In this document: in pieces, positions 19,653 through 43,187 of the stretch | How the letters are laid out: the number at the start of each line of letters is the position of its first letter | How positions within the stretch are numbered: the stretch's first letter is position 1 | Origin: Glaucostegus cemiculus | Lineage: Eukaryota | Length of the DNA stretch: 64,000 bases | Assembly: GCA_976551045.1 (NCBI GenBank) | Contig: CDPCPM010000418.1 | Span: 3,224,001-3,288,000 of the forward strand | Reading direction: 5' to 3' | Program-made: the position numbers and the translations under genes | The notes under the pieces: model-generated | Told to the model about the DNA's origin: nothing | Seen by the model: only the letters and a program-made list of their open reading frames with translations | Database searches by the model: none

Positions 19653-19677
19653 CTGTCAATCATTTTATTTGATTTAT
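19653..19677. promoter_or_regulatory. PBX-MEIS/PREP decamer next to a PBX-HOX octamer
   Basis: ctgtcaatca (TGATTGACAG on minus, 19653-19662) and TGATTTAT (19670-19677). Confidence 0.45.
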
Positions 19678-20023: not shown

Positions 20024-20085
20024 AGCTCCCAAGAGCCTAACCCGTGGATTAAGGAGATACACATCACAAGTTAGGGTCTCAGGGA
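20024..20085 (-). ncRNA. MIR125B1: pre-miR-125b, miR-125b-1 type; 5p 20064-20085, 3p 20024-20045
   Basis: Minus strand TCCCTGAGACCCTAACTTGTGA (miR-125b-5p), an 18-nt loop, then ACGGGTTAGGCTCTTGGGAGCT (as recalled for miR-125b-1-3p). Basal UG at -14/-13, apical UGU and CNNC (CATC) at +17 are all present. Confidence 0.97.
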
Positions 20086-20717
20086 CTGAGAGGTGTGCAA
20101 CATGTTTTATACACATAGTTAGATATATTAAATATATTCAAACACATGCAGAATAAGTCGCAAGGAATCTATTTTGCGGAAAGAATTCTTCTTCTTCGTT
20201 TTACACCGACATCACCTCCTCATCCCTCAAACCTGCCAATCACACCAACTCTCACCTTGCCCGCATCTTTAACCAGTTCTACTTTGCAGGAATAAATGAA
20301 TTTTAAATCGGTTTACCCAGTCAAAGAGAATATTGCTTCGAGAAGAGAGACAGAAGCAAGGTTAGAAATTGGACATTATTCGTTCTTGTCGGTGCCTTAG
20401 CTCCATTTTAACCAGCCGGGTATTTATGGATGACATTTTTTTGGGGGGGGGGGTGGGTAAATCTCTGGAGAAGTGTCCCTTCCTATTCTCGCAGCTTGTC
20501 GAGGGCTGACTGTTCATCCTGTTACGATGAAATATGGGAGGAAATGAATAGGAGAAGGGGAAGAGACAGGAGGCAGAGCCTGCCAAACAACTCACAGACG
20601 GGGGGAAACTACCCACCCCGAGCCCATAAATATCAGGTTTAAGAAGCAAATGAGAGGCAGAGGAGGGCAGTGGTGGGAGGGAAGTACGTGATAACCAAAC
20701 ATCACTTCAGAACTCAC

Positions 20718-20810
20718 CCATTAGCACTGAGCACCACAGTCTGCAACCAGTCCCGGGAAGGAGCGGAGAGAGAATTTAATAATAAAAAAAACCCAAATCT
20801 CAGAACTTGA
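20718..20810 (-). ncRNA. Candidate host exon (93 nt) just upstream of miR-125b
   Basis: Acceptor TTTTTCTCTCTCTCTCAACAG| and donor ATGG|GTGAGT. An alternative internal acceptor TTGCAG| would give a 23-nt exon, 20718-20740. Confidence 0.55.
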
Positions 20811-21268
20811 CTGTTGAGAGAGAGAGAAAAACCGAAATCCTGATTGTCGGTGACCCCCAAGTCGCTACTAGCTTCTCGACAAAATGGTAAGCCAGGGAGA
20901 GACAGCCCTTCGCTCGCACGGATGATACAGTCTCTCCTGATTCTTTCTCTCTTTAAAAAAATTTCTCGGCAGCCACCTTCTCCGCTGCTTCCTTCGCTAT
21001 GTATTTTCCAAACCCCTGTCACTGGGGCCTCAATGCATCAGCTGCCTGTACCAAGCCAAGGCCAAATTAACAACTGCAGTTCTGATGTGTCATATAGTAT
21101 ACACAGGGGGGTTCTGGCAGACATGCCCCCCCCCCCCCTTCCTCCTTGTACATATCCTGTTCTATCCTTGTGTCACTCTTGGTCAACGGTGGCTAAAGGA
21201 ACAGGCACTTTCGGTGAACTTTGTGCCGACAGGAACGGCTCAAAAATATCTTACAAAGAGAAGCAACC

Positions 21269-21270
<2 letters not shown>

Positions 21271-21308
<38 letters not shown>
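21271..21308. repeat. (CA)n microsatellite
   Basis: Perfect CA run. Confidence 0.95.
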
Positions 21309-21311
<3 letters not shown>

Positions 21312-21607
21312 TGTCTCTATTTCTAGCATGGCCTCAGTTTCCCTTTCCCTGCCTCCTTAATTTTAAAACAACACAAATTAGACGATCGAACTAGCCCGAC
21401 TCGAACACCTTCGGATGGGGAGAGGGAGGCAGCGAAGAGATCGGTTCCGGCAGGGCCTTTTCAGTAGAGATCCGAATTACTGTCCATTCAAACATAAAAT
21501 TAAAAAAAAAACATTCATAACCCCGGCCTCACAAACCAGCAACCAGAACAAGCTTGCATATCTGAAACGTTAAATTGCATGCATGAATGTCCTGCTTATT
21601 TCCTCAC

Positions 21608-21885
21608 CTCTTCAGAACACATACACGCCAGAAAATAATCCTCTTCTCCAGTCTTCCCCACAGCATCGCCAGACCGACATCATAAGGACTGTCTTTAAAC
21701 TTAACCATGTAGACATTGCACTATCGATGCGGCTGGCTCGCTCTTTTTTTACAGCGCATACAAGTCTGGAACTGGCTCTCCCCTCGCCTTGCAAAGGAGG
21801 CTGCTGATGGACGACAAACGCTAGGCACTAATCAGTGACATGCAGAAGTGTGTGTGCAGGACCACACTGCCCCCTCTCTCTCTCT
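21608..21885 (-). ncRNA. Candidate first/alternative exon of an internal miR-125b transcript (5' end uncertain)
   Basis: Donor GAAGAG|GTGAGG at 21608 in CpG-rich sequence; possible TTTCCAG/CAG acceptor near 21885. Confidence 0.45.
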
Positions 21886-24800
21886 GCTGGAAAGCTTGGA
21901 AGTATTTCTCCTTTGTCAGGCTCCCTCTCTCCACCGAGTCAGATAAAATGCTAACAGCACAGGCAGAATCAGAAATCAATACCGCTCTGATTACCGCTGC
22001 TCAGTTCTCTCTTGCAGAAGGGGAAGATGGACAGAGAGGTGGGGAGGTGAGGGGAGGGTTGTGTGTGGGGGGGGGGGGGGGGGGGATATCCATTATAACA
22101 GCCTCCGCTCGTCAACACTGCACGCTGTAGCGCTCTAATACCAGATTCACCCTGTCAACCTTACTGCATGAGAATGGGGGCAGGGACGGGGGAAGTAGAT
22201 AAAAAGATCATCTCTAACGGACTGATAATAAGGACCAACATTATTCAGCGGGGGTCCTGGATGATCATTAGATAGTAGGAAATGCAAATAAGTAGATTTG
22301 ATTCATCCTGATAGGTGGCTGAGTTACTGAAACCAACGCAGTCTATTTCAAGCCAATTATTTCAATAACAGAAGCCCAACACAATAAGAATTGGTTAAAT
22401 GGGAGCTGGCAAGTCTTGCGGTTATCCGCAGGGGAGGGTTGCGGGGGTAAGGACGGGCTTTGACATGACTTGGAATTGGATGGTTAGGTCGGCTACTCTC
22501 AAAGGCTTCTTTTTGGGTCGGGTGGGATTATGAGCAAGATTCACTCGCGGGCAGAAGGGTTACAGTTAGAGCTCTCGCCAGTTTGCCATCAATGCAGCTT
22601 TCCATTTTTAAAATGTACTGCATCACCTGTGGAAGAGAAAGGTGGGTCTCTGTGCGTTTGTGTGTGTGTGTGGGGGGGGGGGGGGGGGCGGCGAGGTGGA
22701 GAGAGCCGGAACCTAAGCAACTGCATCATCAACAGGCACTGAAGAATCAATGACTCGGCACAGACAGATATTAAGATTCCGGCTACATTCCTTGGGAAGC
22801 GATCTGTCAGGTGCGGATGGCAGTATCGTGCCTTGCAATAATGTTATCCTTTGTACAGGGCTGAAACAAAGAGGATGAGAGAACTCACCGACATCATCAA
22901 AGTAAAAAAAATATCCCGCTCCCGCAGCCAAAGCCTTCACTTTGACAACTTAACCCCTTCACTGACGCTTCTCCACCGGGCTTTGAAATGTCCCGACCCA
23001 TTTCTAGGTTGTACATCTTGTCTCTGCGTATAATTCTTACAGAATTCCCAAAATAATTTCCAAGATCGTAGGGATGGTTCCTCAGATATTGGCAGGCCTC
23101 CACTTCCTTGTCCAGATGCCATTCACAAGCTCAGACTGATCGCTAACAGGGTATTTGCACTTCAGGGACATCACACAGTCGACCGATCTGAATACATGTA
23201 CTCTGGGCCTGAAGAAACTAATCTTACTCCAGGATAATCTCTGGGTCATGGTGGACACTACAGGATGAATAACCCAGAGAACACAGCCTCAGATTCCACT
23301 AGGACAAGTTGAGAATTTTGCATTCAGTTTCAGTTTCCAGAAAAATAAAACTGATAATAGTAATGATGAAGTCAAAAGAACACATTAGTTCACTTACGTG
23401 CTTTAGGGTAGGGTATCTGATGCTCTAACAATTCTGGCCATGTTCAATAATGACCGTACTTCTCACTTGCTCCTGAAAGCAAAATATGCTGGGAATCTGA
23501 AATAAAAACAGAATATGCTGGAAATACTCAGCAGGTCAGGCAGCCGGTGCGGAGAGAAACGGTGTTATAATGTTTTGGGTTGATGACCTTTGAACAGAAT
23601 CAGAAATGGGAAATGACTTCTAGGACATAGAGGAAGTTCTGGGATGTAGAAGGAGGGATTGAGAGAAAATGAGGTTTGAGAGAGAGGCTAGAATGTCTAC
23701 TAGCATATAATAGACTTTCACTTTTGTTCTTGCCTCCCTTTTTCTGCTTCAGAAATACTTCATTGACTGTGGAGTACTTTAGCCATGAAAGGAGCTATAG
23801 AAATGCAAATTCCTTTTCTTATTTAAGAGAAGACTGTGAGTGCAATTAACCTTTCTAGGTGCTACATATTTATAAATCTTTCTTTCTTATACTAACACTA
23901 AAATGCCTGACCCTCAACTGCTCTAAATGGCATTAAGACCACTAAATGGCTCAGCACCACCTTCTCAATCCAACAAGTGTTGGCCAATAAACATTAGCCT
24001 TGCCAGTGATGGCTGCATCCCCAGAAAGAATGGAAATGTAGCACTTGGTAAACCAGGATGCTATGCACTGAACACAAGGTTGTCTGACTGAGAGACCTTC
24101 TGAATCATTGCTTATCACGATGACATTATTCCCAGACAGAGTGGAGCACCTGCCAATCAAGTCTGGTAACCACGATGCTTAGCCGACAGGGATTAACTTT
24201 GAAGATGTATGCAACTATCCTCCATTCACAGTATTTCACTGGAGAAATTACCCTAATTTTATTTATGGAAGTTGCTATGGCTTCTAAAGTTCTGTTTCCT
24301 TCCTACTTTAAATAGACTTTGTTTTCTGAGTAGATTGAATTTTGGCCATACAATAGGTGAACCTAAATGTGCACCCACCCACCTCCAAAACTTTGCTCCA
24401 TATTGTGTCCTCAGTTGACATCATGTCAAAGTAATTGAGGGAACTGACAGTCTGGCCATAAACAGACATTCTCCCTAAACATAGGAATCTAGATCTGAGG
24501 ATCTGGAACTTAAGCCAAGCCGGTTAAATTCAAATTTAGGAAACATTTGTTTGCCCTAAGGCTTGTAAGAATAAGGAAAACTAGCCCATTGACACAGAAT
24601 CAACTGTGGTCTTTGTAAAGGAGATAGACAGTAATGATGGGGAGATAAAATAGCACTGAAGGGATATCAAGAAAGAGTGAGGGATTGAGGTTAAAAAATA
24701 AATAACAACAGCCATGGCCAAAAAATGTGAACCTTGATGGCTGACTTCTCAGCACTCTGTTCTGATTAAAGTCATAAAACAATGGCTAATATCTTCTCTC

Positions 24801-26759
24801 CTCCTTGGACCAGAAGCCCAAATGTGACAACTCTGCTCCAGGTGACAGGGTGGAGTTTCATTACTATTTGTCTCAGGTTTTTACGAGTTTGAATGCAATG
24901 TTTCAGAGCCAATCTGGTGTTGGGACAAGAATCAGAAAAGCCAGCGAAGAGACAATCAAAATGAATAGAAACCAAAACAAGCTCACACAAGACCATTTGG
25001 GTATGCTAGAATTATAAGAAACGTTGCAGTAGCTTCTAAGTGTTATTATATAAACCAAGGGAATAGTAAAAAGAGTTATAACTGACAGAGCTTTGCTAAG
25101 GGTGAGGTGTGCAACAAAGAACATTTTATTCAAAGCAAATCGAATGTTGATCTATACTGTCAGACCTGTGGAAGGATTGTGTTTACATAGCACCTTTCAA
25201 ATCCGTAGGCTGATCCAAATTGCTTTACAACCAATGAAGTACTTTTGGTTGGTAGGAAATGTGGATGAGAACTTATGCAGAGCTAGTCAGGAATGCAGGT
25301 TTATGGAAAGTTGAAACGAACTTTGATTTATTAACCTGTTGCCCAGCACAGACAGAAAATACAGTAATAGGTACAGAAATGGCTAAACTGGAAAATTTAT
25401 ACTGTTCTATCAGGGCTGAACAGGGGCTGATGATTATCAAAAATCACATCTGGGAGTGTTAGCAGGAGGAATTTCTCACCTAGAGTGATCCACACTTTGA
25501 ATGGACCCAGGGAGACCAGTGGAGCTGAAGTTCCTCCTGATAGGTCATAGGGTTGAAACGTTATCTCTTTCCACTGATGCAACCTGACCCACTGAGCTTT
25601 TTCAGCACTTTCAGTTTATATTACAGAATTCTGCATTTGAATTGGTAAATGAATGCAATAACTTGTCAAATTATTTGTTGTTAAGGAAATGGGGCAGAGG
25701 AAGGGAAGAAGCTGATGGATCAACTGACCTTCGTCATCTTCATCTGTCCCATGAGCACGCAATGATGAGTGCCAGGGGTAATAAAAAGAGGGCATAACAA
25801 TTACGTTCTGAAAATTAAGAGGGTATTCCAATAGGCATTGTTTCTTGACTGCAAATACGTTTCTTTGACAAATGATTTGTATTAATTTGGAGTAGGAGTG
25901 AATCATAGAGTCACAGAGAAATACAGCATAGAAAAAGGCCCATCAGCTCACTGAGTTCATGCTGGCCATCAAAGACCCATTTGATCCTATGTTATTCCCA
26001 TTTTTTACTCTCCCCACATTCTCAAGACTGAGGAACTGAGTATTTTCCAAGTTGGCTGTCAGCTTTAGGCACTCCCTGCATAAATGCAGGAGATTTTAAG
26101 TTCATTTGTCACCTTTCTCTATGAGTATATCTGAAACCCACTCTCAGGAGAGCATCTCTAACAGCACCTAGGAGATTTCTCTGTTTCCCATCCTTGGACT
26201 TCTCTGAGAGAGAGTGTTAGGATGGTCAAGGAGTAGAAGATATCTTCCTGTAGTACAGCCCTTGACCACCTGAAATTGGATTGAGATTGCCCATGCTCGA
26301 ATCACTTTGTCACGTGGGTTTGGAAGACAAAGCTTTTAGCTGCACCGTGGAAAATAAGAAACTATTTGGGGTGAGAGAACAAAAGGGGTCAAGGGAAACA
26401 GGTAGGGAAATTATCAAAAGTTAGTGAAACAATTAAAATTGCCAACAAAGAATTAGGATTTATTTCTGGGAGCAGTAGAATTCAAAAGTAATAATCTTAA
26501 GTGAAAATCGTAAAAGTCTTTAGCATCCTTGTGAACCAATTTTTTCATTTATTTTTGCATTTTTGAACTTTTGAATCAAATTTCCTTAAAATTATTGAAA
26601 CATTATGTACCCCTGTAAATTTTTGACACATGCACTGGGGGTGGGGGTGGGTGGGTGTTCATTCTTCCCACACTGGGAACTGCTGACATAGGGAACAAAA
26701 CATCAAGTTACACTAAAGAACTTCAAGGCCCAGCCTCCATACTAATGAATCACTTGAGA

Positions 26760-27215
26760 AACATTTACAAGGATGCTACCAGAACCAAGAGTGTTATAGA
26801 TAACGAGAAAAATTGAATAGATTGAATCTTTATCTTTATGATGAAGAAGCCTTCGAAGAGACCTGATGGTGTTCTTTGAAATTAATTGTGTGTTGGACAA
26901 GGTGGAAGTTGCATGTTTCTGTGCATGAGAGAGTCCAATGCTAGTGGTCATCAACGCCAAATAGTTATAAATCCAGTTGGAGAATATGAGAAATTCCTTT
27001 CCTCAGAATGTCAAAATTGGTTAGCCTGGGAAGTGGCTGAAACAAATAGATTAGAAGATTTCTAAAAAGAGACAGGATAATTACATGAAGGAAAAAGGAA
27101 CAGAAAGTTATGATGAATGACAGATAAAGCAGAAGAAATTGGAAGAGACCCGTGTGGAGGAACAATACCAGTGCAGACCAGTTGGGACGAATGGGCTGTT
27201 TCTGTTCTATGCAAC
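26760..27215 (+). mobile_element. Degenerate CR1 fragment
   Basis: atttacaaggatgctaccaga...gagacctgat...gaatgggctgtttctgttctat. Similar forward pieces at 29600-30045, 39220-39620, 54660-54950 and 57500-57880. Confidence 0.7.
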
Positions 27216-28399
27216 AGATGACTTTCACAGCTAACAAGGAAGGAAGGCTTCTGCCCAATAATTCAGATCATATTTAAACTCCAAGTCCCACTTCAAGATG
27301 ATCTGACTTCTAACGTCCCAGATGTTCCAACTTCAAACTACCTCAAGATCCCCTGATGGCTTGACTTGAAAACTGGTCCCATTGATTTGCTCGGCCATTT
27401 ATTTCAGACTGAATAAAAATTGAGCTGAGAACAGCGTGCCAAATGAGACCAGCCTGAGTGCTCTCCCTTGGTTGCTTTCCTTTGATATTTAATGCAACCA
27501 GGTTTCATTTGTTCCTGGTTATGTTTGCAAGTCACAGGGCTGGCTCCTGTGTAATGTTTCCAATCACTGATCCTGTAGCAAAGTGGGTAACAATGAACAC
27601 TCCACAGGTCCTAATTCACTGATGTTAGTGATTTGAGGCACTCATCACAAATCCAGTATCAACCTCTCTATCTGCAATTGAGTTGTAGGGACAGGTTTAA
27701 GAATGGCATTGTGGGTAAGCTATATTAGGTAGTGTAACAGGATGGTTCCAAATCAGAGAAAGTTGATGAGAAAAGGAAGATAACGAGCCAGGATTTCCAG
27801 TGCAGTGCATAGTTGGTATAGTTTGTAGACACTGGGTCAGATTAGGATCGAGCTTGACCGTAATGATCCTTAACTGACCAAGTCTGACAATAGATGAATA
27901 GCCTCTCAGCTGAGGTACCAGAGGGTTATTTACCCTCTCGTGCTCTCTCCCTCTTCTTTACTCTTCCCTCAGAGTGGCCACCTCAGATTCATAATGTCAT
28001 TGCAACACAGGAGGCCTTTAGCTCAACTGGTCCATGTCTGTTTTTGACACAGCAATCCACTCTGACCTATATCTTCTCACTCTGTCCCTGTAGCCCTGTA
28101 TGTTTATCCCCCTCATGTGCCCATCCAATTTCCTTTTGAAACTGTTGATCACCTCCAATTCTACCACCCTCATTGCCAATCTAACATGCCCATTCTTCTG
28201 ACACCTCTCTTTCTCAAAGCCTATCGGAAAGACATCTTGTCCTTATCCAAATGGATTTCCTTGTGCCAACAAACCCACACAGAGGGCCAAGATAGGTAGC
28301 CTGGATCAGGAGAATCCTACTAGAGTTTGGACTTTGCATAGCCTACATGCTAGGAAGAGAGAACAACAAATTAAATGGGCAATCCACAGGCATTGGCTG

Positions 28400-28800
28400 T
28401 GGTTGTGGGTGATGGGTCAGGAGATTCAAGTCCCACTAAAGAGACTTAAGGTTAAAACCCAGGTTAACATTCTGTCAGGGAGGACTATGTGTCAGAAGTG
28501 TTCTCCTTGAGATAAGATGTTAAATTGAAGTCCTCATCTGCTCTATCTAAATAGAAAAAAAGTCCTCTAATACAGCTTTGAAGAAGAGAAGGGAGGTTAT
28601 CTCTGGTGTCCCAGCTCAATACATACTTCAACCAAAATTCCTCATGATCATTAATACAGTGCTTTTGATGAGACATTGCTTTGTGCAAACTGGCTGTTGT
28701 GTTTCTTGAAGTTCAGCAGTGTTGCACATTGAAGTACTTCATTGGCTGCAAAATGCGCTGAAGTTGTGAAAGTTGTCATATAAATGCAATCATTTCTTTT
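28400..28800 (+). mobile_element. Deu-domain SINE (SacSINE1/AmnSINE1-like), near full length
   Basis: tRNA-like head (gattcaagtccca), Deu-like core (agatgttaaattgaagtcc...tgaagaagag...ggtgtcc) and tail gaagtacttcattggctg...atataaatgcaatcatttcttt. Confidence 0.7.
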
Positions 28801-31159
28801 TGTTTTATATCTGTTACAGAAATAGTTTGCAGGTCTGTAGATGAACACTCAGATCTATATGTAAATGATTATTAAAATTCATTACAAATTATCTTAACAT
28901 GGGATTCTTTTAGAAGAATTGGAATCAGCTCCCCTCACCTCATTATCTTTTAATTCATTAAAGTCAATTTAAAGGACAGAGTGCTAGTCATCTTAATTGA
29001 CATCAATTGACTGATCGGAGTGGGGAGGAGGGGCAGTGGAAATAAGATTTCAGTCCATTTTGAAATAAAACAAGTTCTGATGCAATGCTGCAAAATCTAC
29101 AAAAAAATGGAAAATATAAAAGGCAGAAATGTCATCACCCACCTTCAAATAATTATCAATCTGTTCAGTTTAAATGGAATCGAAACTCTATCTTTTTCAA
29201 ACAAATTAAATAAATGGCACAAAACCACTATTGGTAGAGATCAGGTGTGACTATTATTCAGATGTAAGAGGATATGTTGAAAACAGTGATACTTTTCCCC
29301 AGTTCTACCACCTTCATGGGCAGCCATTGGCTACCTTAAAGTCCATTCTTCTGGCAAGTATCTTCCCAAAGCCAATCCAAAAACCCAAATGAGTTTTTTT
29401 TTGGTGCCAATAAACTCCGCTAAAGGCCAGGAAAGATGGTCAGAACCGTGAGAATTCTATGAGAATCTGGATGTTGCCCAGGTCTCATCTCACGTTTGTA
29501 GCACATAAAGCAGACCATTATGCTTGAGTGGTCTATGCTGGTGTTTTGTTTACATGCCTTGTCCCATCTTATTTCTTTTCATCCTATCGGCATTGGATGC
29601 AAAGGATGAAGTTTTCGTACAGATTTACAAGAAAGTTACAAGTGATGAGAAAATTAAATAATGAGAAGAGATTTGTAAAGTTAGAACTATTCGCCATCGT
29701 ACGTAGAAGGTTAAGAGATGACTTAGTAAAGGACTTCAAGACGATGAGAGATTTCAATGGATAGATGTTCCACCAGGTGAGTGGATCAATAGGTAAAGAT
29801 CATAAAACTAAAATTATTCGAGCAGTGATTAGGAGAAATGTCTTTACTTGGCTAGTTGTTAAGGTTTGGAATGTTCCAACTGAAAAGTTGGTAGATGCTG
29901 ATTATAAGAGTCTAAAATGGAGTTGGATGGGAACTGACAGTAATAGAGACAAATGTAGGGGAATGGGGCAAGGCATAACCTCTCCCTCAGAGCTTAGACA
30001 TGATGGGCAGAGTGGATATCTGTACTGTTGGTTTCTTGATCTCTGATACACTGTATTCCTTTTGTTCTCACGTATTCATCCAGTTTCCTCCTAAATACAG
30101 TAATGCCATTCACCTCAGCCTGTCCCTGAGGCGCTGAGTTCCTCATTCTAATCACTGTGTCCATCCCAAGTGATGTTTGCCCCAGTGTAGAACTGGAATG
30201 ATGGCAATCTCAATTGAATGCAGCATCTTATATTCCAACTGCCCTCAGGACTCAACATTGAGTCAAAACTTAGTCTCTATTCTAGCACAGGCATTCCACT
30301 TGTTCTCCTGACCAAGTTCCTTCACTGTAACTTAAAATATGTTTAATTTCTAACTTTTCCTACTTCTAATGGAAAGTCATTGACCTGAAACCTTAACTGT
30401 TTCTCTCTCCACACGTGTTTCCTACCCTGCTGAGTGGTTCCATTATTTCCTGTTTTATTAATTTCAACTAAAATTGGATGGAGATTTAATTTCTTGATAA
30501 AGCTGTGGGAGATCAGTGCTGATGCTTGACAACAAGACTGGGTTCCTGGTCTCCCTGGGACTTGAATTCACTCGTCTTCCATTAGTGTTCCATCATTTAC
30601 CCAATGCACACTACTTTGCATAGAATTTCCCACAAGCCAGCCACCTATGTCTATGGAGGGTCCGGAAGAAATTCCAGTTCTGCACCAGTGACAGAGCCTG
30701 ATGCAAACTGTGATATGTCTACTCTGGTTCCAATTTCCTTTGTGGAATCAGTATTGCTGAATTGCTGAAAGAAAAGTGATGTCTGGATGACAGCTTTGGC
30801 TAGATGTTAGGTATCATCATGTGACCGCTCATTGCCCTGCTCTCACATCCTCACTCTTTGCCCATTCTTGTAGCACCCCATCTTCCCAGGGGCAATCATA
30901 AAGCAGTCTCTTCCTTATCCAATTCATTTTTTTCCTTACTCCCAATAACTAATAAATAATTTTTCTCATTAAAATGAACATCCATTTTTTGGCCCTATGA
31001 CTTTACACCCCCCAACCCCCTAACCCCCATACATTAAACCTGGAGGGGGTGCAAAACTTCTCTTAGTGGAAATGAGTACTCAATGGTGTGTAGTTCTGTG
31101 TTCCCAATTGCCACCTGCTGGTTTAAAGCAGTAAGTACCTTCTGAGCGAGTTAACAAGG

Positions 31160-32040
31160 ATACGAGTCCATCTCATTTATCTGTTGTATTGCCTTTTGCC
31201 GTATACATTAGGAAGGGTGTAGTATGGGAGTGGTGGTGATCCCAGGCAGTGGATGCCCTCAGGTCAAAGCCTCCCTGTGTGTGGATGACATCACCCTCTT
31301 CAGCTCAGATCCACTGTTGGTCTGCAGATTGATAAGCATCCGCGACCAGTTTGAACTGGCCTCTAGGGCTAGAGAGGAATTCAGCAAAGCAAGGCCACGG
31401 TCTTTGGTAACTGGTCTGATTGATCCTTTATTCCCTTCATTGTCTGGTCAGATTACCTGAAAATGCTGGGAATATGGTTCGCAGGGTGGAGTCTATTAAT
31501 CAAGGTGAAACTGAAACAGGGATTTTGGGAGCATCGCTCTCAGTTGTGGGTATGAGCCTGGTCATTGAGTGGGAAGTGTTCTCAGTGCTGCTGCAGGTGT
31601 CATATGTGGGGTCTTTACCCAGATCCTGCATTGCTGCGGTCACCTGAGCTCTCTTACACTTCATCTGGAGATTAAGAATGAGAGATACATTGGATACACT
31701 TCTCCTGTTCTCCCTGGAAATTTGTACATCATGTCTCCATGTTCTCAGCATGGCTACATTTTTGTGTGGCTGCATGAAGCTGTTCCTATACTCTGGGTAT
31801 GCAAACACCTAGTGTCACTATGTGCTGATGTTCTACCTGCCCTCATTGTTGATGAGAATGGACCTGGTCACATTGCAGTGGATCATTCTCTTTAACAGGA
31901 CCATAAAAGAACTATCAACGTCCTAATAATAAAATATACATATTGTAAGGAAATGGACTGATGTGTCTTGTATTTGAATATAGACATATGACTATATAGT
32001 ATTTTGGAAATTGTATAAAAATATCTTTGGGTTAAAAACA
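31160..32040 (+). mobile_element. Degenerate Tx1/L1-clade LINE, RT fragment plus AT-rich 3' end
   Basis: ORF 31224-31460 gives QVKASLCVDDITLF...QFELAS, a decayed YxDD region, followed by frameshifted ORF2-like sequence. Confidence 0.65.
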
Positions 32041-32052
32041 ACAAGAATATGT

Positions 32053-32214
32053 ATGGAGACACAAGAGGCTGCAGATGCTGAACACAAAATGCTGGAGGGA
32101 CTCAGCAAGTCAGGCTGGTCCAGATGAAGGGTCTCGACCTGAAATGTTGACTGTCAATTTCCCTCCATAGATGCTGCCTGACCTGTTGAGTTCCTCCAGC
32201 GTTTTGCGTGTTGC
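32053..32214 (+). mobile_element. Penelope-like short element with inverted 5' part, hammerhead-like core and 12-bp TSD
   Basis: TSD acaagaat(a/g)tgt at 32041-32052 and 32215-32226; core cagatga-agggtctcgacct-gaaatgtt at 32121-32148. Confidence 0.75.
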
Positions 32215-33459
32215 ACAAGAATGTGTGTCCCCAATTAGCCTGACCCACTGTTTCATTCACATACATTCCACAAATAATACGTTATGGTGGTGCCAGCCCT
32301 TCGGTTTGCAATGATAGAAAGGTTCTAAGCCTTAAACCTTTCCTCATGAAACATTTGCAGTGGCTTCACCAAGCTTCAACATGTCCCTCAGTACATGGTC
32401 ATACACCTTGGACTGTACTACTCTGCAACACTTGGTTGCGGACAGTTCCTTGCCTTGGAAGATCAGTTTTGGTAGAAGTGTTGAGTTATTAGTAATGAGG
32501 AACCAAGGGTGAGAGAAAAAAAATGAGAGAAGAAGAATATAGAAGGCAGATGGTAATCAAGCTTATGTTTTAAAAGCCTATAGATTGGAAAAAGAAAGTA
32601 AAAAATTTGCACAGTTTTAATATTAAGGTATAGATGGTGATTCTATTTTTAGATTAGTAATATAGTGGCCTAGACTAATAATGCAGGGATTCAAGTCTCA
32701 CTCTGACAATTTGAGATTTGAATCCAGTTTAAATCCATCTGTGGTAATCATACCATCGCTGTATTATTGTAAAATCTATCAGGTTCACTAATATCCTTTC
32801 GGGAAGGAAATCCATCATCCTTCTACAGTCAGGTCTTTATCTGATTCCAGTCTCTCACCAACTTGGTTAATGATGGTCTTGGGGCAACTAGGGATTGGTA
32901 ATAATGCTGTGTAAATTAAAAGAATTCATACTGAAAAACAGAGTTAAACTTTGCTAAAATCTCTGTGAAGCCACTTTTTTGTTCTCAGTATCAGCACCCA
33001 ACACTTCCAGGTTAGAGCTAAGTTCAAGCCAATCCAAATCTTTAAGAATTGTAGAGGAGAAGATTCTGGGTTCAAGTCCTTGCAAATGGCTTGTAAGTCC
33101 TTGCAAGTCCTTGTAAATGGAATTAAGTGAAAAATCTGCATTTACTACCTGCTTTTGATTCCTCGGTTTTGTCAGTCATCTGATTCCAAGACCAAGAACT
33201 CATCAGAACGTTGATTGAGCGGTGATCAAACCAGCTTGTAAGCCCAGTAACCCAGTCCTATTTGTGTAATTATTTCTTACTCACTGATTTGTCCTGAATC
33301 AAATTTCTTGGCTGGAGATTTGGAAGGAAACTGTTCATACTACTGTTGCATCTTTGGTGAATCAGATCAGAGGAAGACTGTAGGTGGAAATGAAAAAATC
33401 ATCAGCATGCAGGTGGCCCGGTGACACGCTTCCATCCAGGAAAAATTTCTAACCTAAAC

Positions 33460-33830
33460 AGACCTGCATCTAGACAGCATCTTTCATGACCACAGACATC
33501 CCGAAGTGCTTTAAAGCCAGTGAAGTACTATTAATTGTAACTCCTATTACGATGTAGGAGACATGACAGGGAAACTGTACTCAGCAAGCTCCCACAAACA
33601 ACAATGAGAGTATGGCAAAGGGATATTGGTAAAAGGACAAACATTGGCCAGGACACCAGGGAGAACTCTCTATTTCTTTTCAAAAAAATGCTATGGCATA
33701 TTTCACATCCACCTGAGAAAGCAGATGGTGCCTCAGCTTAATGTCTGATCTTTAAGCTGGCATCATTGACAGAGAGCATGTACTCCTTACATGGTGCTGC
33801 ATCAGTCTGAATTGTATGTTCAAGCACTTG
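33460..33830 (-). mobile_element. Deu-domain SINE (reverse)
   Basis: cattggccaggacaccagggagaactc...cacatccacctgagaaagcagatggtgcctcagcttaatgtc. Other copies at 3545-3860, 11785-11935, 34450-34700, 34990-35125, 35750-35945, 50590-50875, 52830-53040, 54955-55125, 59215-59600 and 62800-63110. Confidence 0.7.
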
Positions 33831-36800
33831 CGCTGGTGTCAGCTACCTTACATACACAATGTGGAAATTAATGGGGATATGGAATTAAACAACATGCAGC
33901 TCAGAGACTCTATGACATATGGCCCATGGAGACAAGAGCTTTCCCCTTTAAATAGACATCCTTACGTCTTTGTTCTGTCTCCAGTGATTTTGAAACAAGA
34001 AAATGCTGTTCTACATTAACCTTATTTCTTTGGTTTAAAATTAATGAGTGCGCAAAATGTTTCTTTGGGGTGAATTGTCATATTAATAAACTTTAAAAAT
34101 TTCTGTGACTCCCTCTAAGAGCTGCTCACTCTTTGTAATGTGGCCCTGTTTTATACTTTCCACTAAACCCACTGTGCAAAAATAAATGGATACGGCAGTT
34201 GATTAATGTTTGACTCTCTGCAAAATGCTAATCTGTTAATTGATCCTTTTAACGGCTCCATTTAGCTCCTCATCACTCACCCAGTACTCAGACTGAAACA
34301 CTGCAGCTAAACATCCATGAGATTTAAAGGCACAGCCTCATCTAATGAACATTTGGGGCTTTCTCTACTGAGGCGATATCTTTACTGTTTATTCCTGTTC
34401 AACTTCATAAAATGGATCAGGGCATTGATCACTGGCAGGTGGAGGACACTCTGGGTTAGTCCTGATGGGAGTCTTGCATCTGAGTCAGAGATTGTGTGTT
34501 GATGCCCCAGTCTAGGGCTGTACTGCTGGAAGGCTGCAATATCAAAGGCACCAACTTTTAGAAAGGTATACGGAGTTCCATGGCACTTCAAAGAAGAGCA
34601 GTGGTGTTCACACAGTGCCCAATACTTATCCTTCAACCAACATCTCCAAAGAAAAGGGGATGCTTACTTCTGTACCTCATCATATGCCACACATTAGCTG
34701 CTGAGTGTTTCAAAGAGATTCTACCAACAGTGCAGCAAACCTGCTCCACTTCCTCTGTCCATTTCAGGTTTAGAGCTGGAAAGACAGTAGCGTGATGGCT
34801 AGTTAAACATGTGCAACAAGGGTCAACTTCAATGGGAGCATGAGGCAGGTTTACACTTTGCCTGACTGATCCTTCCATTAAAACCAGTCAGTGTGGTGCA
34901 CAACTGGTGATGGATCATAGATGTTGAATTTTACATCTCAAGGAGAATGAAGGGATATGGGAGATTGAGCAGGGAAGTGGAAAGAAAATCCTTGCATTTA
35001 TATAGCACCATCCACTGTGACTAAAGTATCATCACAGTTGCAGTGTTGAACAACACCAAAAATGTGCATGGCAAGATCCTGCAAACACCAATGTAATTAT
35101 GATCAGGTAATCTGTTTTGTAATGTGTGCTTTGTTTCGGGGATTTGTATAGTACGCTAGAGATAAAGCTCCTGCCCATCCAGATGATGACATCTCTGAGA
35201 GTGTAGAACTCCCATAGTAATGCCTAGATTTTCTGGTCAATCTTTCAGATTCAACATGCAGCCAACATCATTCCTCACCTTTTAGTTACGCAGGGACAAC
35301 TCTGTAAAGTAAGGATAATTCCTTCTACTAAATCATTTTATTAAGCAAGTCCTGCATTTATTTTCCTCTGCTTTCCTTCAGTTCTACCCTGTTCTGCATT
35401 GCTGCCCTCTCCACCTCATCAGTTGTGGCTTTGCCTCAGTGTTCCATGCCATAAACCCTGGGATATCTCTGCTAGACCTCTCTAACTCTCTCCTTCTCCA
35501 TAATGACTCCCCTTAAAACCTCTGCCTTCTAGACCAAGCATTTGGTCATTTGCACCAACCTCCTTTCCTTTGGCTTTGGTATCAATTTTTGCCTGACTTT
35601 GTTGCAGTGGGTCAGCACTGGATGCCTTATTGAACTAAGGCTGCTACATAAATGAATGAAATTGTTGGAAGAAGGAGGCTCCATAGAACTGGTTGAATAA
35701 TCTCACATCTCACAGCAGAAATCCCCCCATCTCATGGCATCGTGGTATCTAACAACTATTAAAAAATATTCAGATAGTCTGGATCTTTATTTTATTGCTT
35801 ATAGGATCTTGCTGTGTGCAGATTGTCTGCTATATTATAAAACAAAATGGCTACACCTCAAAAACAATTAATTGGTTGTGAAGCACTTTGAGATGTCTGG
35901 AGTGTATGGGGGGTAGGGGGGGCTATACAAATGTATATTTTTTCTCGTTACTTTTGACCAAACGAACAGAACATTAAAGTATTAAACTATAGATGCTGGA
36001 AATCTGAAATCGAAACAGAATATCCTGGAAGTACTAGGATTCTAGCACTATAAAAATAATTTAAATAAGTGACACCAAAAAGAGTTCCATCAAAGGCTCA
36101 TTTGCTAGGATGCCTTCTGTAGCTTGGGTGGAGTTTAGAATCTAGCATTAGCCTCTTTGCTGATGCAAATGCCCCACTAACAATTTCAGCAGCTGCAATA
36201 TATTGCATTGGATAGATTATTAAAAATCAGTGTTTCCAGCAGAGACGTGGCTAGCCACCAACCATCTCCAAACTTAGAACATGCAACTCAACAGATTTCA
36301 ACGAATGTGGATTTTCTGGTAATTAAGTTTGTTTTCTGGCTGGGAATAACAAATGAGCTGTGTACCAAAAGCAGAGAGCTTTTTTTTTTATTTGAGTACT
36401 TCAGGGCACATGAAAGAGGTCTTCTAACCTCTTCTATCATTCTGTATAGTGGAGTTAGTTCACAGCTCAGCTATGATCTCAGTGAATGGTAGAGCAGGCT
36501 CAAAAGGCCAGATAGCCTGCTCACCTTCCAATGTATTTTCATAGCTTAATGTCGTACTCATTCTCACCCATCCTTCCTGTCCACAACAGAAAGATGGAAT
36601 TAATATTTGTCACAGAAATATGGTTTGGAACATTCATTCGTTCTTCCATCTGACACCTCAGACTCTTGTCCTCCAGGGAACCTTGCTCTCCCAAAACACC
36701 CCAGAACCATTATGTCCCTTAGAGTTATTAATAACCTCATAACCATCATTATCAGTCTAACCTCCAATCAGACACTGATCCAATTAAATTAAGTTAATTA

Positions 36801-39800
36801 TTATACAATAATATATTGTCATTTAGTTATCCTGTGCCAATTTAAGCTCAGCTTCCTTCACATATAATGGACTGGGTTGTTTAAACTCTGAGCCGGGGTG
36901 GAAAATGGACAGTGGCAAATTATCTGCTAATTATGTGGCCCACACCACCTTTCCTTCTGTGGATGTCAGTGGAAAAGAAAAGCAGGCATTTTGCATAATA
37001 AGTAGCTTAAAACAGAAGCAGAAATGGGCCACAAGTGGCCCACGCTTACTCCACCATTCAATGAGATCAGAGCTGATCTTTTTTTCTCAACTTTATTCTC
37101 CTGCTCTATTCTCATTTTGTTTGGTTTTCTTAGTGCCCAAAAATCTATCCTTCCCAACCTTGAATATACTCAACATCTGAGCATCCACTTTCTTCATGGG
37201 TAGAGACTTCCACGGATTCAAAACCATCTGAGCATAGGAATTTCTCCTCCTCTCGGTGCCAGGAATTGAACCCATGACTTACAACTCTCTGCTAGACTGA
37301 TGCACTATCCATTGCACCAGGCTTGTTTAGCAATCTAGATTACCAGCACTCCAGAACCTCAATTCAGAAGGATGTTCCTGTCATTTTATTTCGAGTATGC
37401 TGCAGTCTGGGCGAAATCTGAATTTTGCCTTCACTGATGTCCTGCTCTGGGTACTAATGCAATAGGGTGTTCAGGTTGCCAACACCAACAGTACTTTGAC
37501 ATCAAATGAGTGCAAACTTTGAACCTGGAATTCCAATTAAGATGTAATAAATCCACTTAAAAGTGTATTAGTTAAATTGTGGCTGAAGATGTAATCTATT
37601 TCCATGTATTGAACACAGATTCAATCTGATTTCTATTCACTTTTGGGATACTTGTAACACTGGACAACTATTGTCTAAATGAGCGCCTTGCCACTTCAGA
37701 GGATCACTTATAGAATCACAGAACTGTGCAGCATGGAAACAGGCCATTTGGCCCAACATGCCCAAGCCAACCAGTGGGCGCTCTTCCTGGGGACTTTGCT
37801 CGATTAACCCAGAATGTCCAGTAACTTATGACCAATATTTAGTCTCCAGGGATCTCACCCAAACTTGGGCTGGTGAGTGCATAAACTCAAACCTTAATGG
37901 CTGTAGGATCCAATCAGCATACGCACACCTGCCAGAGGGCACCGTACGTAGGCCAGTTGGAACCAGAGGCCCATAGCCTGTGAACTCCCTGAAAATACTG
38001 CCAAGGCAGCTAAGGGTTGACTCGATGTTGTCATCCTTGAATGGTTTCATTTCTTGAAGAATACTAGTGAATCAGTTGGGTTTTCACAACAATGCAATGG
38101 CACTGTTTAGTCATTGTAGTCACTTTTACTGACATTAGCTACTTATTCTAAAAGTCTTTTTTAAAATGAATTCAAATTATAAAACAACCATGATGAAATT
38201 CAAATTTACCTTGTGGAAAAAACAAAATAAATCTGAAATAAAATCAAAAAATGGTGCAAATACTCAGAAGGGCAGACTGCATCTCTGGAGAGAGGAACTG
38301 ATATGTGTGCTTCCAGAATTTTCTTTTTTTTTAATTCTTGAACACGCATTCTCAGGATGACAGGTGTTGCATCATTAACCTCTCCTTGAACACCAGTTTG
38401 AAATATATTTCACTTCATCTGCTAGGCAGGGATGAAAACCGATGAACAGGATTTCAGTTCCACACCTTTAATAAACACAGAGGAGCCAATTTTCCTCGAG
38501 TCACAACCTCCCCGCCACCCTGTCTCTGCACACTGTGACATCCTCTAATCCTCCAAGAATATTATACTGCTCCAATTCCGACCTCTTGCACACCCCTGAT
38601 TTCTTTCATTCTGCTGACTCATGGCTGAGTCACCAGCTGCCCAGGTGCTAAAGTTTAGAACTCCTTTCTTAACCCTCTCTGTCTTTCCACCTTGGTCCCT
38701 TCCATTAAATCATGGTTTAAACCTATCTCTCACCCACTGCTTACAGCAGATTCTCTTTGACAATGCTATGTTAATCCTGGGTTGTTTTACTTACTGTGAA
38801 GGCACCATATAAATGTAAGTTGTTGCTGCTGTGGTTCATAGTGCTGGAAACCCTACAGTCCCTCATCTCCTGGGATGTACATGGGACATGGTTGTGGCTC
38901 AATTCTATCCACAGCTCCACTCCAACACAACCAAGGGACAATGCCAGGATTGTTTGTTGAGAAACTGTTACATCTATCCTGCTGGTTGCTTGATACAATG
39001 ATAATAAAATTAATTAATCAATCCATTTCTGTCAGATACATCTGCACAGACGATACCAAAACTGACCAGGTGTGCAAGTTATGTATAATATATATTAATT
39101 TAAGTTTGTGTTACCTTATGTTTGTCATACTTGTTATGTACTGTGCTGTTGCTGCAAAAAGCAAATTTTCATGGCACTTATACCCTGTATATGTACGCAT
39201 CTGACAATAAACTTGAAGCATGAATTCCAGTTACGAGGAGAGATTGGCTAGGCTTGGATCATTTTCACTGGAACAGAGGAGGAGGAGGCTTGTGAGGTGT
39301 ATAAAACTGTTAGGGTGCTGGACAGGGTGAACAGGAAGTACTGATTTGCCTTAGCAGAGATAATCAGGGGACACAGATTAAATGTAATTGACAGGAAGGT
39401 GATGCTCAAGAAAATATTTCCCATCTCAAAAGTGGTGGGGGTCCAGAACTTTAAGCTAAAAGGTGGTAGAAGTAGAAGCCCTCATTATAGTTAAAAAAAA
39501 ACCTGCCATTACTTAATCTACCAGCGATATAGGTTAAAAAGGTTTAGATAGTTCTTTTTAGCCAGCATAGACAAAATGGCTTCTTTCTGAGCTGTAAATT
39601 TCTCAGATTCTGTGATTCTATCTATGAGCTGAAAGTAAATTCAGGCAGCGGCAGAGGTAAACCATCCTGTGATGCTGAGATTTGGGGACATTTAGCATAA
39701 AGGCAACTAGTTCCTCTCCAATATTACATACTCAGCACAGGCATGTCTCAGGATTTTCCATGGAATTATTGGATAGCAATCAATAGAGTAACTCTGGTTA

Positions 39801-40262
39801 TTACTCCCAATATCCCTTGCCAAAAAGCTGGAATCCACTTGATGGCCTTCTGGTGATGGCTTAGAATTTAGCACACATTGAGTTTCAGACTGAGTGGCAA
39901 AGTGATGGTTTCTTAATCTACAGGATCACTGGTTGGACTGAGTGAAACTGTGCAGTGAGCAAAGAAGAACACCAGTAAACTACAGTTCTGTTTGAAAAAG
40001 AATCAATGGACAGAAAGACCGCAGGGGACAAAAGGTTAACACAATCGTCTTAAGCATCAAAACCTTTCTCTGTAAGAAATGTAAGTTTGAGAAATGTGTT
40101 TGTGCCCATTATCTTTCCAGCAGATACTTATAGTCAGATTGATGAGCTTCATCCCATGAGAGTAAATCAAAAAGCTTACCATTTTCTGAGTTATGTTTTA
40201 TTTTCTCTTTGGGTCGACTGTCTGTGCCTTGCTTTCTTGCTGCTGTAGTATGTGTGCCCCAA

Positions 40263-40329
40263 GGAAAGCTAGGAGGTTGTACAGTTATCTCCCTTGGTAT
40301 AATTCTAAACTATACAACCTACTACCTCA
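40263..40329 (-). ncRNA. MIRLET7A2: pre-let-7a, let-7a-2 type; 5p 40308-40329, 3p 40263-40284
   Basis: Minus strand reads TGAGGTAGTAGGTTGTATAGTT-TAGAATTATACCAAGGGAGATAA-CTGTACAACCTCCTAGCTTTCC: exact let-7a-5p, a let-7a-2-like loop with the LIN28 GGAG motif, and a complementary 3p arm. It lies 1.3 kb downstream of miR-100. The paralogue number is less certain than the family. Confidence 0.96.
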
Positions 40330-41572
40330 GCCTGGGCGCACACGGTGTTTGGCTCCGTCGACCCCTGCATCAGAGGCTCAAAGAGAAGTTGGGTTGAGTA
40401 GAAAGTTGTTGCGAGAAGAGGTCAGGGATGACTCAGAGTGGTGTTGGAGGAGGAAAGAAGGGAAAGATTGCATTGCTCCAAAGTCTGAGCTTACTCTATA
40501 TACCTACAATATCTAAAGGTGTGACTGAATGACATATGCAGACCCTGAGAAGGACATACATTGAGAAATCCATAAACAGGACAACAGGACATTGTTACAG
40601 ACAGACACACACACACACACACACCTTACCAATGCACACACCTCGCTAACACACACATAAAACTCTGAACACACACATACCAAATGAACACATATATCTA
40701 TAAATACAAACATACACAGACCAGTTAGTACTCAATAACTTCAGTCCTAATTTTAAGAAAAAGACTCATTGATAAAAGTAGCTATCAATAATGTGAAGTC
40801 TCTACCCCAATCAGGCAAGTCTTATGGCCCACCAAATCACTTGTTCACCACTCCCACCTCTCCCAGCTGCCCTGCCTAAAGGAAATCTGATAGTCTCACT
40901 GACGTTCGGTCAGAGGTATTGTGCAGGCAGCTCTCGGAACACGGTATCAGTAAGGTGTGGGTGCCACAGTGAATATGCAAAACTCATTTTCATTGTCCAT
41001 TTCTGACTAAATGGCTATCCTAAAATCTGTTCCTTATTTTTTACCATTCATGGCTAGTCCCAGGTAGAAACCACATTTCATACTGATTCATAAAACCCTA
41101 TCACACCCATAAGCTTTTTGGGCCACTATTTCCAGAAGGGTAAATTAAAGACTGGGTGAAATGGTTAATTTTGGCAGGGAGTTGCCAGCTGGGAGGTCCA
41201 CATCATCACTGACTCATGGATTGGGACTTCCACATTCCTTGCCCCACCCTGCTACAAAAAACACATGATTTAAAGTTGGCCCAACTAGCTTCAGATTTGA
41301 GGAGTTTTGCCTTGAGCACAACATCGGTCAGGCAAAATGACCTGTCAAATATAATGTCATTCTATTTTACTGGTTTTCATCAAGACATTTGCTGTTGCAA
41401 CCCAGTTCTTGTACACCAACATACAAAATATGGTCTTGGAGAGCAAATAGTAGCCACCAGCCCCTACCCTGGGACCCCCTGCAGGCAAACACTCTTACAG
41501 TATCTCACATTGAGAATTGCCACTGGGAAATGACACACGTCAATGGCTGGTTGGTTCTTTACCATGTAGACA

Positions 41573-41630
41573 CAGACCTATAGACACGAGCTTGTGAGAT
41601 ACTTGAAACACAAGTTCGGATCTACGGGTT
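41573..41630 (-). ncRNA. MIR100: pre-miR-100 (miR-10/99/100 family); 5p 41609-41630, 3p 41573-41594
   Basis: Reverse complement of 41609-41630 is AACCCGTAGATCCGAACTTGTG (canonical miR-100-5p). It pairs with CAAGCTCGTGTCTATAGGTCTG across a 14-nt loop; flanks (CTGCCACT.../...TGTCT) resemble mir-100 flanks. Confidence 0.97.
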
Positions 41631-42059
41631 AGTGGCAGCTGGCTCTGCAATCTCCATTCTTTCTGGCTTCTCTTCTTTCTCTTTGTCGACTTCATCAACT
41701 TCTCCAATATGTCACTAAAGCTATTAATGTTCCTCCCTTCCATTTCCTTTCTCTAACCATCCTTTCCTCCCTCTTCAACAAAGAACAACAGTGAGTTCAG
41801 AAACCAAAGTAAAAATGTAGTGTTGAGGTAAACATGTCCTAATCTAGAGTTTTCTTCTCACTTATTGCAATTTTAAATTTACATACATCACTTTTTCTCT
41901 CAATCAAATCATACCAAAAGAGGACAAAAATGTTTTCAATATTAACTATAAAAATAATATTAAACCCAAAACACCAACATTGAAATCTGGCTGCTCTTGT
42001 ATCTACGCAGGGTCGTCTGTTGGCTCCCAGCTTCAACTCCTGGCATAAGGCGACGATAC

Positions 42060-42111
42060 CTCAGGAGACGGCATTGTATTTCGCTAGGCCGAAACCTCTG
42101 GAGTTTGAGGT
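42060..42111 (-). ncRNA. Candidate host exon upstream of miR-100
   Basis: Long pyrimidine tract ending TTGTTGCTTATACTTCAG|; moderate donor GAG|GTATCG. Confidence 0.4.
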
Positions 42112-42511
42112 CTGAAGTATAAGCAACAAAAAAAAGGAAATAAAAAGTTTGTAAAGGCTTAAAGCAAATAATTCACTGCTTTAACTGCCAGCATCAGTAA
42201 CTTGGTAGAATTAAATGCAACAACACTTCAAGATTTCTAAGACATCGAAATTAAAACTAAAATAATTTTATCCTCCAATCTTCCAGATTGAAAGTTAGAT
42301 GGGTATGTGTTTGTATGTACATAAAGTTTCTTCATTAAAATTAGTAAAATCTTAGAGATAAAGACATATAATTGAGTGAAAAATATGTTCTCATCTGAGT
42401 ATAACTGATTGGGAGAATTCTGGAAGGTTTGTTTTGTACCATAGCAGGCTCCTTGGCTGGCAACCCAGCCTCCTTCTGCATGCCAAGCTTGGACACAGTC
42501 TTTGTCCTGCT

Positions 42512-42513
<2 letters not shown>

Positions 42514-42568
<55 letters not shown>
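42514..42568. repeat. (CT)n microsatellite
   Basis: CT run with one phase slip. Confidence 0.95.
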
Positions 42569-42569
<1 letters not shown>

Positions 42570-42628
42570 TTCACCCCCACCTTCATTCTTATTCCCAAAA
42601 AAATGAAGGACTTTTACTTGAGACTTAC

Positions 42629-42684
42629 GGCTTAAGTCTCATAAACAGACACACTCCCATTCAACGAAAGATTCCGAAAGGGAT
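42629..42684 (-). ncRNA. Candidate host exon (56 nt)
   Basis: CATTTCAG| acceptor and consensus CC|GTAAGT donor. Confidence 0.35.
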
Positions 42685-42699
42685 CTGAAATGTCCAGTT

Positions 42700-43145
42700 G
42701 GACTGTGGTAGCACACTACCCCACCCGCTTCCGATAGCAAAACGGTGCATGGAAAACGTTCTGTTTAAATGCAGAAACATTCACCTCACCTTTCTCCTCG
42801 CTCTCCGTTGGAAGGATGAAAAGAATAACAAAAATATAAAATTTTGACATAAATCCAAATGCAGGGCAATTGTTTTGGAGGATGGAAGGGATTCAAATAG
42901 ATCTTTACCTCAGCCCTTCCCGCTCCAATTTCCCCTGCACCCCCTTCACTCACCATACTGTACCCACCCATCCCATTTCACTCCCCTTTGTTCAGCATAG
43001 GTCCTGCCTCATTTTAAGGCACGCTGCCTTTTATGACAAGAAGGCCTACCCTGAAGGTAGTACTGCCAACGTGTGCGCGTGCACACATGCGCGAGCACAC
43101 ACATATGCACGCATGCACGCACACACACGCACGGATGCATGTGTG

Positions 43146-43187
<42 letters not shown>

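What the first reader, a model, noticed from the sequence alone, without database searches (positions are those of the whole stretch)
20024..41630. Intact miR-100 / let-7a / miR-125b tricistron hidden in an apparently gene-less window
Seen: three complete minus-strand hairpins in the ancient bilaterian order, spaced ~1.3 kb and ~20 kb. Known: this is the vertebrate MIR100HG/MIR99AHG architecture, with miR-125b set far downstream. The system is not new, but it explains the window and an ORF-based annotation would miss it.
Basis: partly seen in the sequence, partly recalled or inferred. Interest (0 to 1): 0.7.

Follow-up and report, generated by a model that had tools for sequence, protein, structure and literature searches.

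The report
Known miR-100/let-7a/miR-125b microRNA cluster
This is an ordinary, intact copy of a well-studied cluster of three microRNA genes, likely the counterpart of human MIR100HG in what is probably a shark or ray; the one small addition is that the third gene lies 20 kb from the others in CpG-rich DNA that likely holds its own promoter.

Summary
Three minus-strand hairpins start at 41630, 40329 and 20085, with gaps of 1,301 and 20,244 nt. Each folds better than all 200 shuffles (z -4.1, -5.0, -4.5). Rfam passes two (mir-10, let-7); miR-125 scores only weakly there.

SORL1 lies 267 kb downstream. A second cluster (miR-99a type) lies beside NRIP1 on another contig. So the window most likely holds the MIR100HG orthologue (cluster D), not MIR99AHG. 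The genome is probably a cartilaginous fish, judged from many dispersed immunoglobulin clusters.

RNA reads from a relative cover the let-7 to miR-125 gap thinly, about 9:1 in the orientation expected for minus-strand RNA. This fits a long host transcript but does not prove one. Drosha/Dicer processing could not be tested.

Two small additions. miR-125b sits in a 7 kb CpG-rich domain, more conserved where tested, probably an internal promoter. Both paralogous clusters already have a 20 kb gap, which a 2012 study placed in tetrapods. The scan earlier found the paralogous miR-99a cluster in another genome. Already known; low interest.

The parts
41567..41637 (-). miR-100 hairpin (mir-10 family); 5' arm 41609-41630; predicted precursor 58 nt (41573-41630)
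   Evidence: Rfam RF00104 66.9 bits; z -4.05; 18 of 22 arm bases paired, apical UGU present, no basal UG, CNNC at +20
40260..40335 (-). let-7a hairpin (let-7a-2 type by synteny); 5' arm 40308-40329
   Evidence: Rfam RF00027 70.8 bits; z -4.97; UG at -13/-12, one base off the usual place; CNNC at 40248-40245, about 16 nt past the 3' arm (read by eye)
20024..20085 (-). miR-125b predicted precursor (miR-125b-1 type); 5' arm 20064-20085
   Evidence: z -4.51; 19 of 22 arm bases paired, basal UG at -14/-13, apical UGU, CNNC at +17; 5' arm identical to the C318 copy; Rfam only 24 bits
16001..23000 (.). CpG-retaining domain centred on miR-125b; candidate internal promoter and host-gene exons (inferred)
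   Evidence: Seven consecutive 1-kb tiles with 23-36 CpG, o/e 0.46-0.67; 18 of 440 flanking tiles reach 25 CpG, median 6. 20.5-23.5 kb differs from a relative's contigs by 2.0-3.2% against 4.1-6.7% for 23.5-35.9 kb; 16-20 kb was not compared
42001..45000 (.). CpG-retaining zone 0.4-3.4 kb upstream of miR-100; candidate promoter of the long host transcript (inferred)
   Evidence: 18-30 CpG per kb, o/e 0.43-0.64; no transcript start tested
20200..35900 (-). Part of the let-7 to miR-125 gap, thinly transcribed in a relative; likely intronic host RNA
   Evidence: In 12 of 30 bins taken as single-copy, summed depth 21.3 with first mate on + against 2.3 on -, three RNA runs of one study

Best explanation
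[quoted passage not shown] Shown: the hairpins, their order and strand, SORL1 downstream, and a paralogous miR-99a cluster beside NRIP1. Inferred: RNA polymerase II makes a long host transcript from the CpG-rich zone above miR-100 (or further upstream) that carries all three hairpins in introns. A second start in the CpG-rich domain just above miR-125b likely gives a shorter transcript with miR-125b alone, like human linc-NeD125. [quoted passage not shown] In human blood stem cells the three jointly damp TGF-beta and raise Wnt signalling (PMC4003278); targets in this animal were not tested.
For: Coordinates, folds and Rfam hits. Processing motifs, all three present for miR-125b. A Vps10 exon at C418:2976722-2976883 best matches sortilin-related receptor (E 2e-29, against 1e-6 for sortilin) and lies 267 kb downstream; SORL1 is named as a MIR100HG neighbour in PMC6057987. 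Exactly two miR-99/100-type and two miR-125b-type matches in the genome, forming two same-order clusters. The other cluster is 750 kb from NRIP1, the human MIR99AHG neighbourhood (PMC8719081). Strand-biased RNA over the gap. Human polycistronic transcription and a miR-125b-1-only host RNA.
Against: No small-RNA reads were examined, so cleavage and arm ends are untested. The RNA evidence is from a relative: roughly 37 against 4 read pairs by a rough conversion, with library orientation assumed. Six to nine of the 12 single-copy bins per run have any plus-first-mate depth, so continuity is not shown. Upstream-side synteny is not shown. No host exon was found among the 145 best of 3,682 candidate frames in 440 kb. 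JHY maps to C239. The HSP70 search gave only one exon on C418, of the HSP105/110 type, whereas JHY and HSPA8 lie near the human locus (recalled). miR-100 lacks the basal UG and its CNNC is at +20. miR-125 passes no Rfam cut-off.
Confidence: 0.9

Rival explanations
1. The hairpins are genuine, but miR-125b is a separate transcription unit here. Only miR-100 and let-7a share a primary RNA, so the cluster is linked but not tricistronic.
For: Depth in single-copy bins is higher just above miR-125b (mean 0.92 at 20.2-23.3 kb) than further upstream (0.27). A strong CpG domain surrounds miR-125b. Human has a miR-125b-1-only host RNA.
Against: Same-strand reads continue in distal bins of the gap. Human data support one common start for all three. 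Higher divergence of distal bins from the relative could lower mapping there.
Confidence: 0.12
2. The locus is not the MIR100HG orthologue but MIR99AHG, or a fourth genome-duplication paralogue that kept ancestral-like sequences.
For: Both clusters in this genome carry the same let-7a 5' arm, so mature names do not separate them. Upstream neighbours known from human were not found on C418.
Against: SORL1 is linked to this cluster and NRIP1 to the other. The other cluster carries the miR-99a-type arm. Cluster D was reported in elephant shark (PMC3384580).
Confidence: 0.04
3. The hairpins are silent relics, or the functional strand is the plus strand (mir-3596-like antisense microRNA).
For: Rfam's top score in the window is mir-3596 on the plus strand; plus strands also fold.
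Against: mir-3596 is the antisense of let-7 loci by definition. mir-10 scores 66.9 bits on minus against 37.5 on plus. Processing motifs fit the minus strand. RNA reads favour the minus strand.
Confidence: 0.02

Closest known systems
Human MIR100HG cluster miR-100/let-7a-2/miR-125b-1 (cluster D of Hertel et al. 2012, PMC3384580; Emmrich et al. 2014, PMC4003278)
   Same: Three hairpins in the same order on one strand, miR-125b far downstream, SORL1 as neighbour, no protein-coding host.
   Different: let-7 to miR-125 gap 20.2 kb against 46 kb in human. Host exons not identified here. Upstream human neighbours not found on this contig. No BLID-like frame was looked for.
[quoted passage not shown]
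   Same: Same architecture; its counterpart in this genome is the C318 cluster, with gaps of 2.7 and 20.7 kb.
   Different: That cluster, not the window's, has the miR-99a-type arm and the NRIP1 neighbour.
linc-NeD125 (MIR100HG isoform hosting miR-125b-1 only; PMC9544809)
   Same: Implies a start between let-7a-2 and miR-125b-1, where this window has a CpG-rich, more conserved domain.
   Different: No start site or exon is shown here.
Compact ancestral mir-100/let-7/mir-125 cluster of protostomes, and mammalian cluster A (miR-99b/let-7e/miR-125a)
   Same: Same three families and order.
   Different: Those are compact (a few hundred nt apart in arthropods). No cluster A member was found in this assembly by exact patterns, which does not show absence.

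Membership tests
Bona fide microRNA gene (MirGeneDB-type criteria) | About 60-70 nt hairpin with at least 16 paired arm bases | tested here: met
   miR-100 18 of 22 paired, 58 nt; miR-125 19 of 22, 62 nt; let-7 long stem. The threshold of 16 is recalled.
Bona fide microRNA gene (MirGeneDB-type criteria) | Reads from both arms with homogeneous 5' ends and 2-nt offsets | not testable with these tools
   No run is listed as a small-RNA library and no listed holder is on record as RNA; the hairpins themselves were not covered by a read lay.
Bona fide microRNA gene (MirGeneDB-type criteria) | Processing motifs (basal UG, apical UGU, CNNC); optional features | tested here: inconclusive
   All three in miR-125b; apical UGU only in place for miR-100; CNNC in place and UG one base off for let-7 (motif set, usual positions recalled).
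mir-10 family (miR-100) and let-7 family | Rfam score above the gathering cut-off | tested here: met
   66.9 against 47.5 bits; 70.8 against 53.5 bits
miR-125 (lin-4-like) family | Rfam score above the gathering cut-off | tested here: not met
   Best relevant hit is mir-10, 24 bits. RF00052 found nothing in the genome and nothing in its controls, so that model was not shown to detect miR-125.
miR-125 (lin-4-like) family | Conserved 22-nt miR-125b 5' arm in a hairpin at the third cluster position | tested here: met
   Arm identical in both clusters while loops and flanks diverge. The name miR-125b rests on the recalled mature sequence.
Mixed let-7 cluster (mir-100/let-7/mir-125) | Three families, same strand, this order | tested here: met
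Cluster D / MIR100HG orthologue | SORL1 as downstream neighbour | tested here: met
Cluster D / MIR100HG orthologue | UBASH3B-side neighbours upstream | tested here: inconclusive
   UBASH3B was not found by the family search or in 440 kb upstream; JHY is on another contig.
Cluster D / MIR100HG orthologue | One primary transcript carrying all three hairpins | tested here: inconclusive
   Thin strand-biased reads of a relative over 15.7 kb of the 20.2 kb gap; no molecule spans it.
Cluster C / MIR99AHG orthologue | miR-99a-type arm and NRIP1 neighbourhood | tested here: not met
   Both belong to the C318 cluster

The most novel reading that the evidence does not exclude
The long let-7 to miR-125b gap, with a CpG-island promoter that lets miR-125b be made without its partners, is not a tetrapod innovation. 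It was already present in the ancestor of jawed vertebrates, and perhaps before the duplication that made clusters C and D, because both clusters of this probable cartilaginous fish have a gap of about 20 kb.
Probability: 0.45. Interest if true: 0.3.

Novelty: already known. Interest (0 to 1): 0.12.

Why it matters
It explains the window and should be annotated: three of the most conserved animal microRNAs in a region with no protein gene. The system is textbook, and cluster D was already reported in elephant shark. The only point of wider use is evolutionary. If the host is a cartilaginous fish, the uncoupling of miR-125b from miR-100/let-7 (long gap, probable own promoter) is older than tetrapods. 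That would amend one statement in PMC3384580.

Tried and rejected
Rfam lin-4 (RF00052) search of the genome: no match, controls also silent, uninformative. The first miR-125 pattern was one base too long and found nothing; it was corrected. A miR-125a pattern found nothing, which is no proof of absence.

Sequencing-run search: no RNA holder listed.

A BLAST of the window against 70 kb around the C318 cluster gave collinear matches at the three hairpins; the rest read as simple or interspersed repeats, so no shared non-coding element was seen. An energy-ranked hairpin scan of 8,522 windows was a poor test: miR-125b came 17th of the 26 listed, and miR-100 and let-7 were not listed.

Search for UBASH3B: the two short His_Phos_1 hits checked matched other enzymes; the three long hits were not checked. 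The 145 best of 3,682 upstream frames gave a reverse transcriptase, DUF7041 and one sub-threshold hit. A direct IgNAR match was not obtained: one exon was MHC class II alpha, another IgH-like. Weak Rfam hits near 43.1 kb (IRES_L-myc, mir-297 and others) fall on a CA-rich repeat and were rejected. No earlier scan note lies near this window.

Full report
1. Observation. Each 86-89 nt stretch folds into a long stem with z -4.05, -4.97 and -4.51, and 0 of 200 shuffles fold as well. Rfam passes mir-10 (66.9 bits) and let-7 (70.8 bits). The miR-125 hairpin passes no cut-off; its best relevant hit is mir-10 at 24 bits. The lin-4 model found nothing in the genome or in its controls. Plus strands fold as well. 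The top Rfam score is mir-3596 on the plus strand, the family listed as antisense to let-7 loci in PMC3384580 (passages).

2. Anatomy. Predicted precursors are 58 nt (miR-100; 18 of 22 arm bases paired) and 62 nt (miR-125b; 19 of 22). miR-125b has basal UG at -14/-13, apical UGU and CNNC at +17. miR-100 has apical UGU only, with CNNC at +20. let-7 has UG one base off and a CNNC about 16 nt past its 3' arm (the last read by eye). The motif set is that of PMC6943042 (passages); the usual positions are recalled.

3. Which paralogue. The window is G000:C418:3224001-3288000 in a 2.85 Gb assembly. Exact patterns found two miR-99/100-type arms, seven let-7 arms and two miR-125b arms. They form two mixed clusters: this one, and one on C318 with a miR-99a-type arm and gaps of 2,690 and 20,651 nt. 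The C318 hairpins also pass Rfam or fold well. A Vps10 exon 267 kb downstream of the window's miR-125b matches sortilin-related receptor far better than sortilin. SORL1 is named as a neighbour of MIR100HG in PMC6057987 (one passage). NRIP1 lies 750 kb upstream of the C318 cluster, as NRIP1 and MIR99AHG share human 21q (PMC8719081, passages). An HSP70-family gene lies just beyond it, where human has HSPA13 (recalled). The window is therefore most likely cluster D of Hertel et al. (PMC3384580, section 8 part 1 of 2). Against this: UBASH3B was not found, JHY is on C239, and the only HSP70-family hit on C418 is an HSP105/110-type exon 1.7 Mb upstream (it resembles HYOU1, recalled). The upstream side is either broken up in this assembly or rearranged.

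4. Host clade. A C1-set search gave 150 scored matches of 747 candidates. Many are evenly spaced exon sets repeated on contigs C97, C117, C615, C628, C868 and C900, with a long array on C50. One such exon is IgH-constant-like; the shark protein UrIg2 was third among PDB hits, after two human Ig chains (PMC12227049, passages). Multiple IgH mini-clusters are characteristic of cartilaginous fish, with a mixed form in lungfish (PMC6795676, passages). The host is probably a shark or ray; this is an inference, not a direct identification.

5. Transcription. Three RNA runs (one study) and one contig set from a relative were laid on 20200-35900. The relative's contigs cover nearly all of the stretch. 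Substitutions are 2.0-3.2% at 20.5-23.5 kb and 4.1-6.7% at 23.5-35.9 kb. I kept the 12 of 30 bins with contig depth under 25 as single-copy and dropped 18 that hold repeats. In those 12, summed RNA depth is 21.3 with the first mate on + against 2.3 on -, roughly 37 against 4 read pairs. In most stranded libraries this means minus-strand RNA. The listed joints lie at repeats, and no spliced host exon was identified. Depth is higher next to miR-125b (0.92) than further up (0.27). This fits unspliced host RNA with an extra start near miR-125b, but coverage is thin, the species differs and the orientation is assumed.

6. Promoter-like DNA. CpG counts show a 7 kb domain at 16001-23000 (23-36 CpG per kb, o/e 0.46-0.67) centred on miR-125b. 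A second zone at 42001-45000 lies just above miR-100. The median of 440 flanking 1-kb tiles is 6, and 18 of them reach 25. The C318 cluster sits in generally CpG-richer DNA and shows only a mild rise near its miR-125, so the pattern is clear for one paralogue only. In human, the three microRNAs share one start (PMC4003278, passages). A host RNA with miR-125b-1 alone also exists (linc-NeD125; PMC9544809, passages), and a miR-125b-1 promoter element has been assayed (PMC2879527, passages).

7. Mechanism. Shown: hairpins, order, strand, linkage. Inferred from established microRNA biogenesis and the human orthologue: Pol II host RNA, Drosha/DGCR8 cropping from introns, Dicer cleavage, 5' arms loaded on Argonaute. 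Inferred from CpG, conservation and depth: a second promoter for miR-125b. Not tested: cleavage sites, targets, tissue.

8. Novelty. The cluster is ancient and well described, and cluster D was already detected in elephant shark. The same paper says the let-7 to mir-125 distances increase substantially in tetrapods. Here both clusters of a probable cartilaginous fish have about 20 kb, which suggests the gap is older. Paper searches (listings only, apart from the papers named) showed no statement on this distance in sharks or rays. I did not see that paper's online distance table or MirGeneDB, which may hold it. A bioRxiv preprint (10.1101/2021.09.01.458616, passages) treats Let-7-P1 + Mir-10-P2/P3 as one ancestral cluster and includes elephant shark. 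An earlier scan note on another genome (e1-9365002) reached the same kind of verdict for the miR-99a paralogue, including an own promoter for the third gene; I had seen the CpG pattern before reading it.

9. Verdict. Observation confirmed, interpretation supported and narrowed to MIR100HG, already known, interest 0.12.

Noticed in passing
window 18001-18085: GC-rich hairpin 2 kb downstream of miR-125b, z -4.8 (minus) and -5.3 (plus), no Rfam match; the 700 nt around it matched only itself in the genome. It was picked from 8,522 scanned windows and is built from purine and pyrimidine runs, so chance is likely.
   Followed up: partly
window 15406-15490: Near-perfect long inverted repeat (z -7.6) made of two pieces of an interspersed repeat in opposite orientation; a repeat-derived hairpin, not a known microRNA.
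   Followed up: partly
G000:C318:2649723-2649744 (L008): The let-7 of the miR-99a cluster has the same 5' arm as let-7a. Human let-7c differs by one base there (recalled), so that change may be younger than this lineage.
   Followed up: no
whole genome G000: No member of the third mixed cluster (miR-99b/let-7e/miR-125a) was found by exact patterns; loss, divergence or an assembly gap.
   Followed up: partly
L097:700-1900 (G000:C418 about 3508700-3509900): CpG-rich non-coding zone about 243 kb upstream of miR-100 in a gene-poor stretch; could be a distal host-gene promoter or an enhancer.
   Followed up: no
G000:C239:3850152-3853128; C354:6086958-6108080; C418:4993807-4993968: JHY and two tandem intron-containing HSP70 genes lie on other contigs, while an HSP105/110-type exon lies upstream on C418; gene order around the cluster may differ from human.
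   Followed up: partly
L117:7011-8801 (G000:C418 about 3715000-3716800): Retroelement piece with reverse transcriptase (RVT_1) and DUF7041 matches.
   Followed up: no
G000:C172:1987010-2241697: Array of about ten intronless HSP70 genes, some with stop codons.
   Followed up: no
window 6504-6625: Exact-like tandem duplication of a 60-nt unit, 98% match.
   Followed up: no
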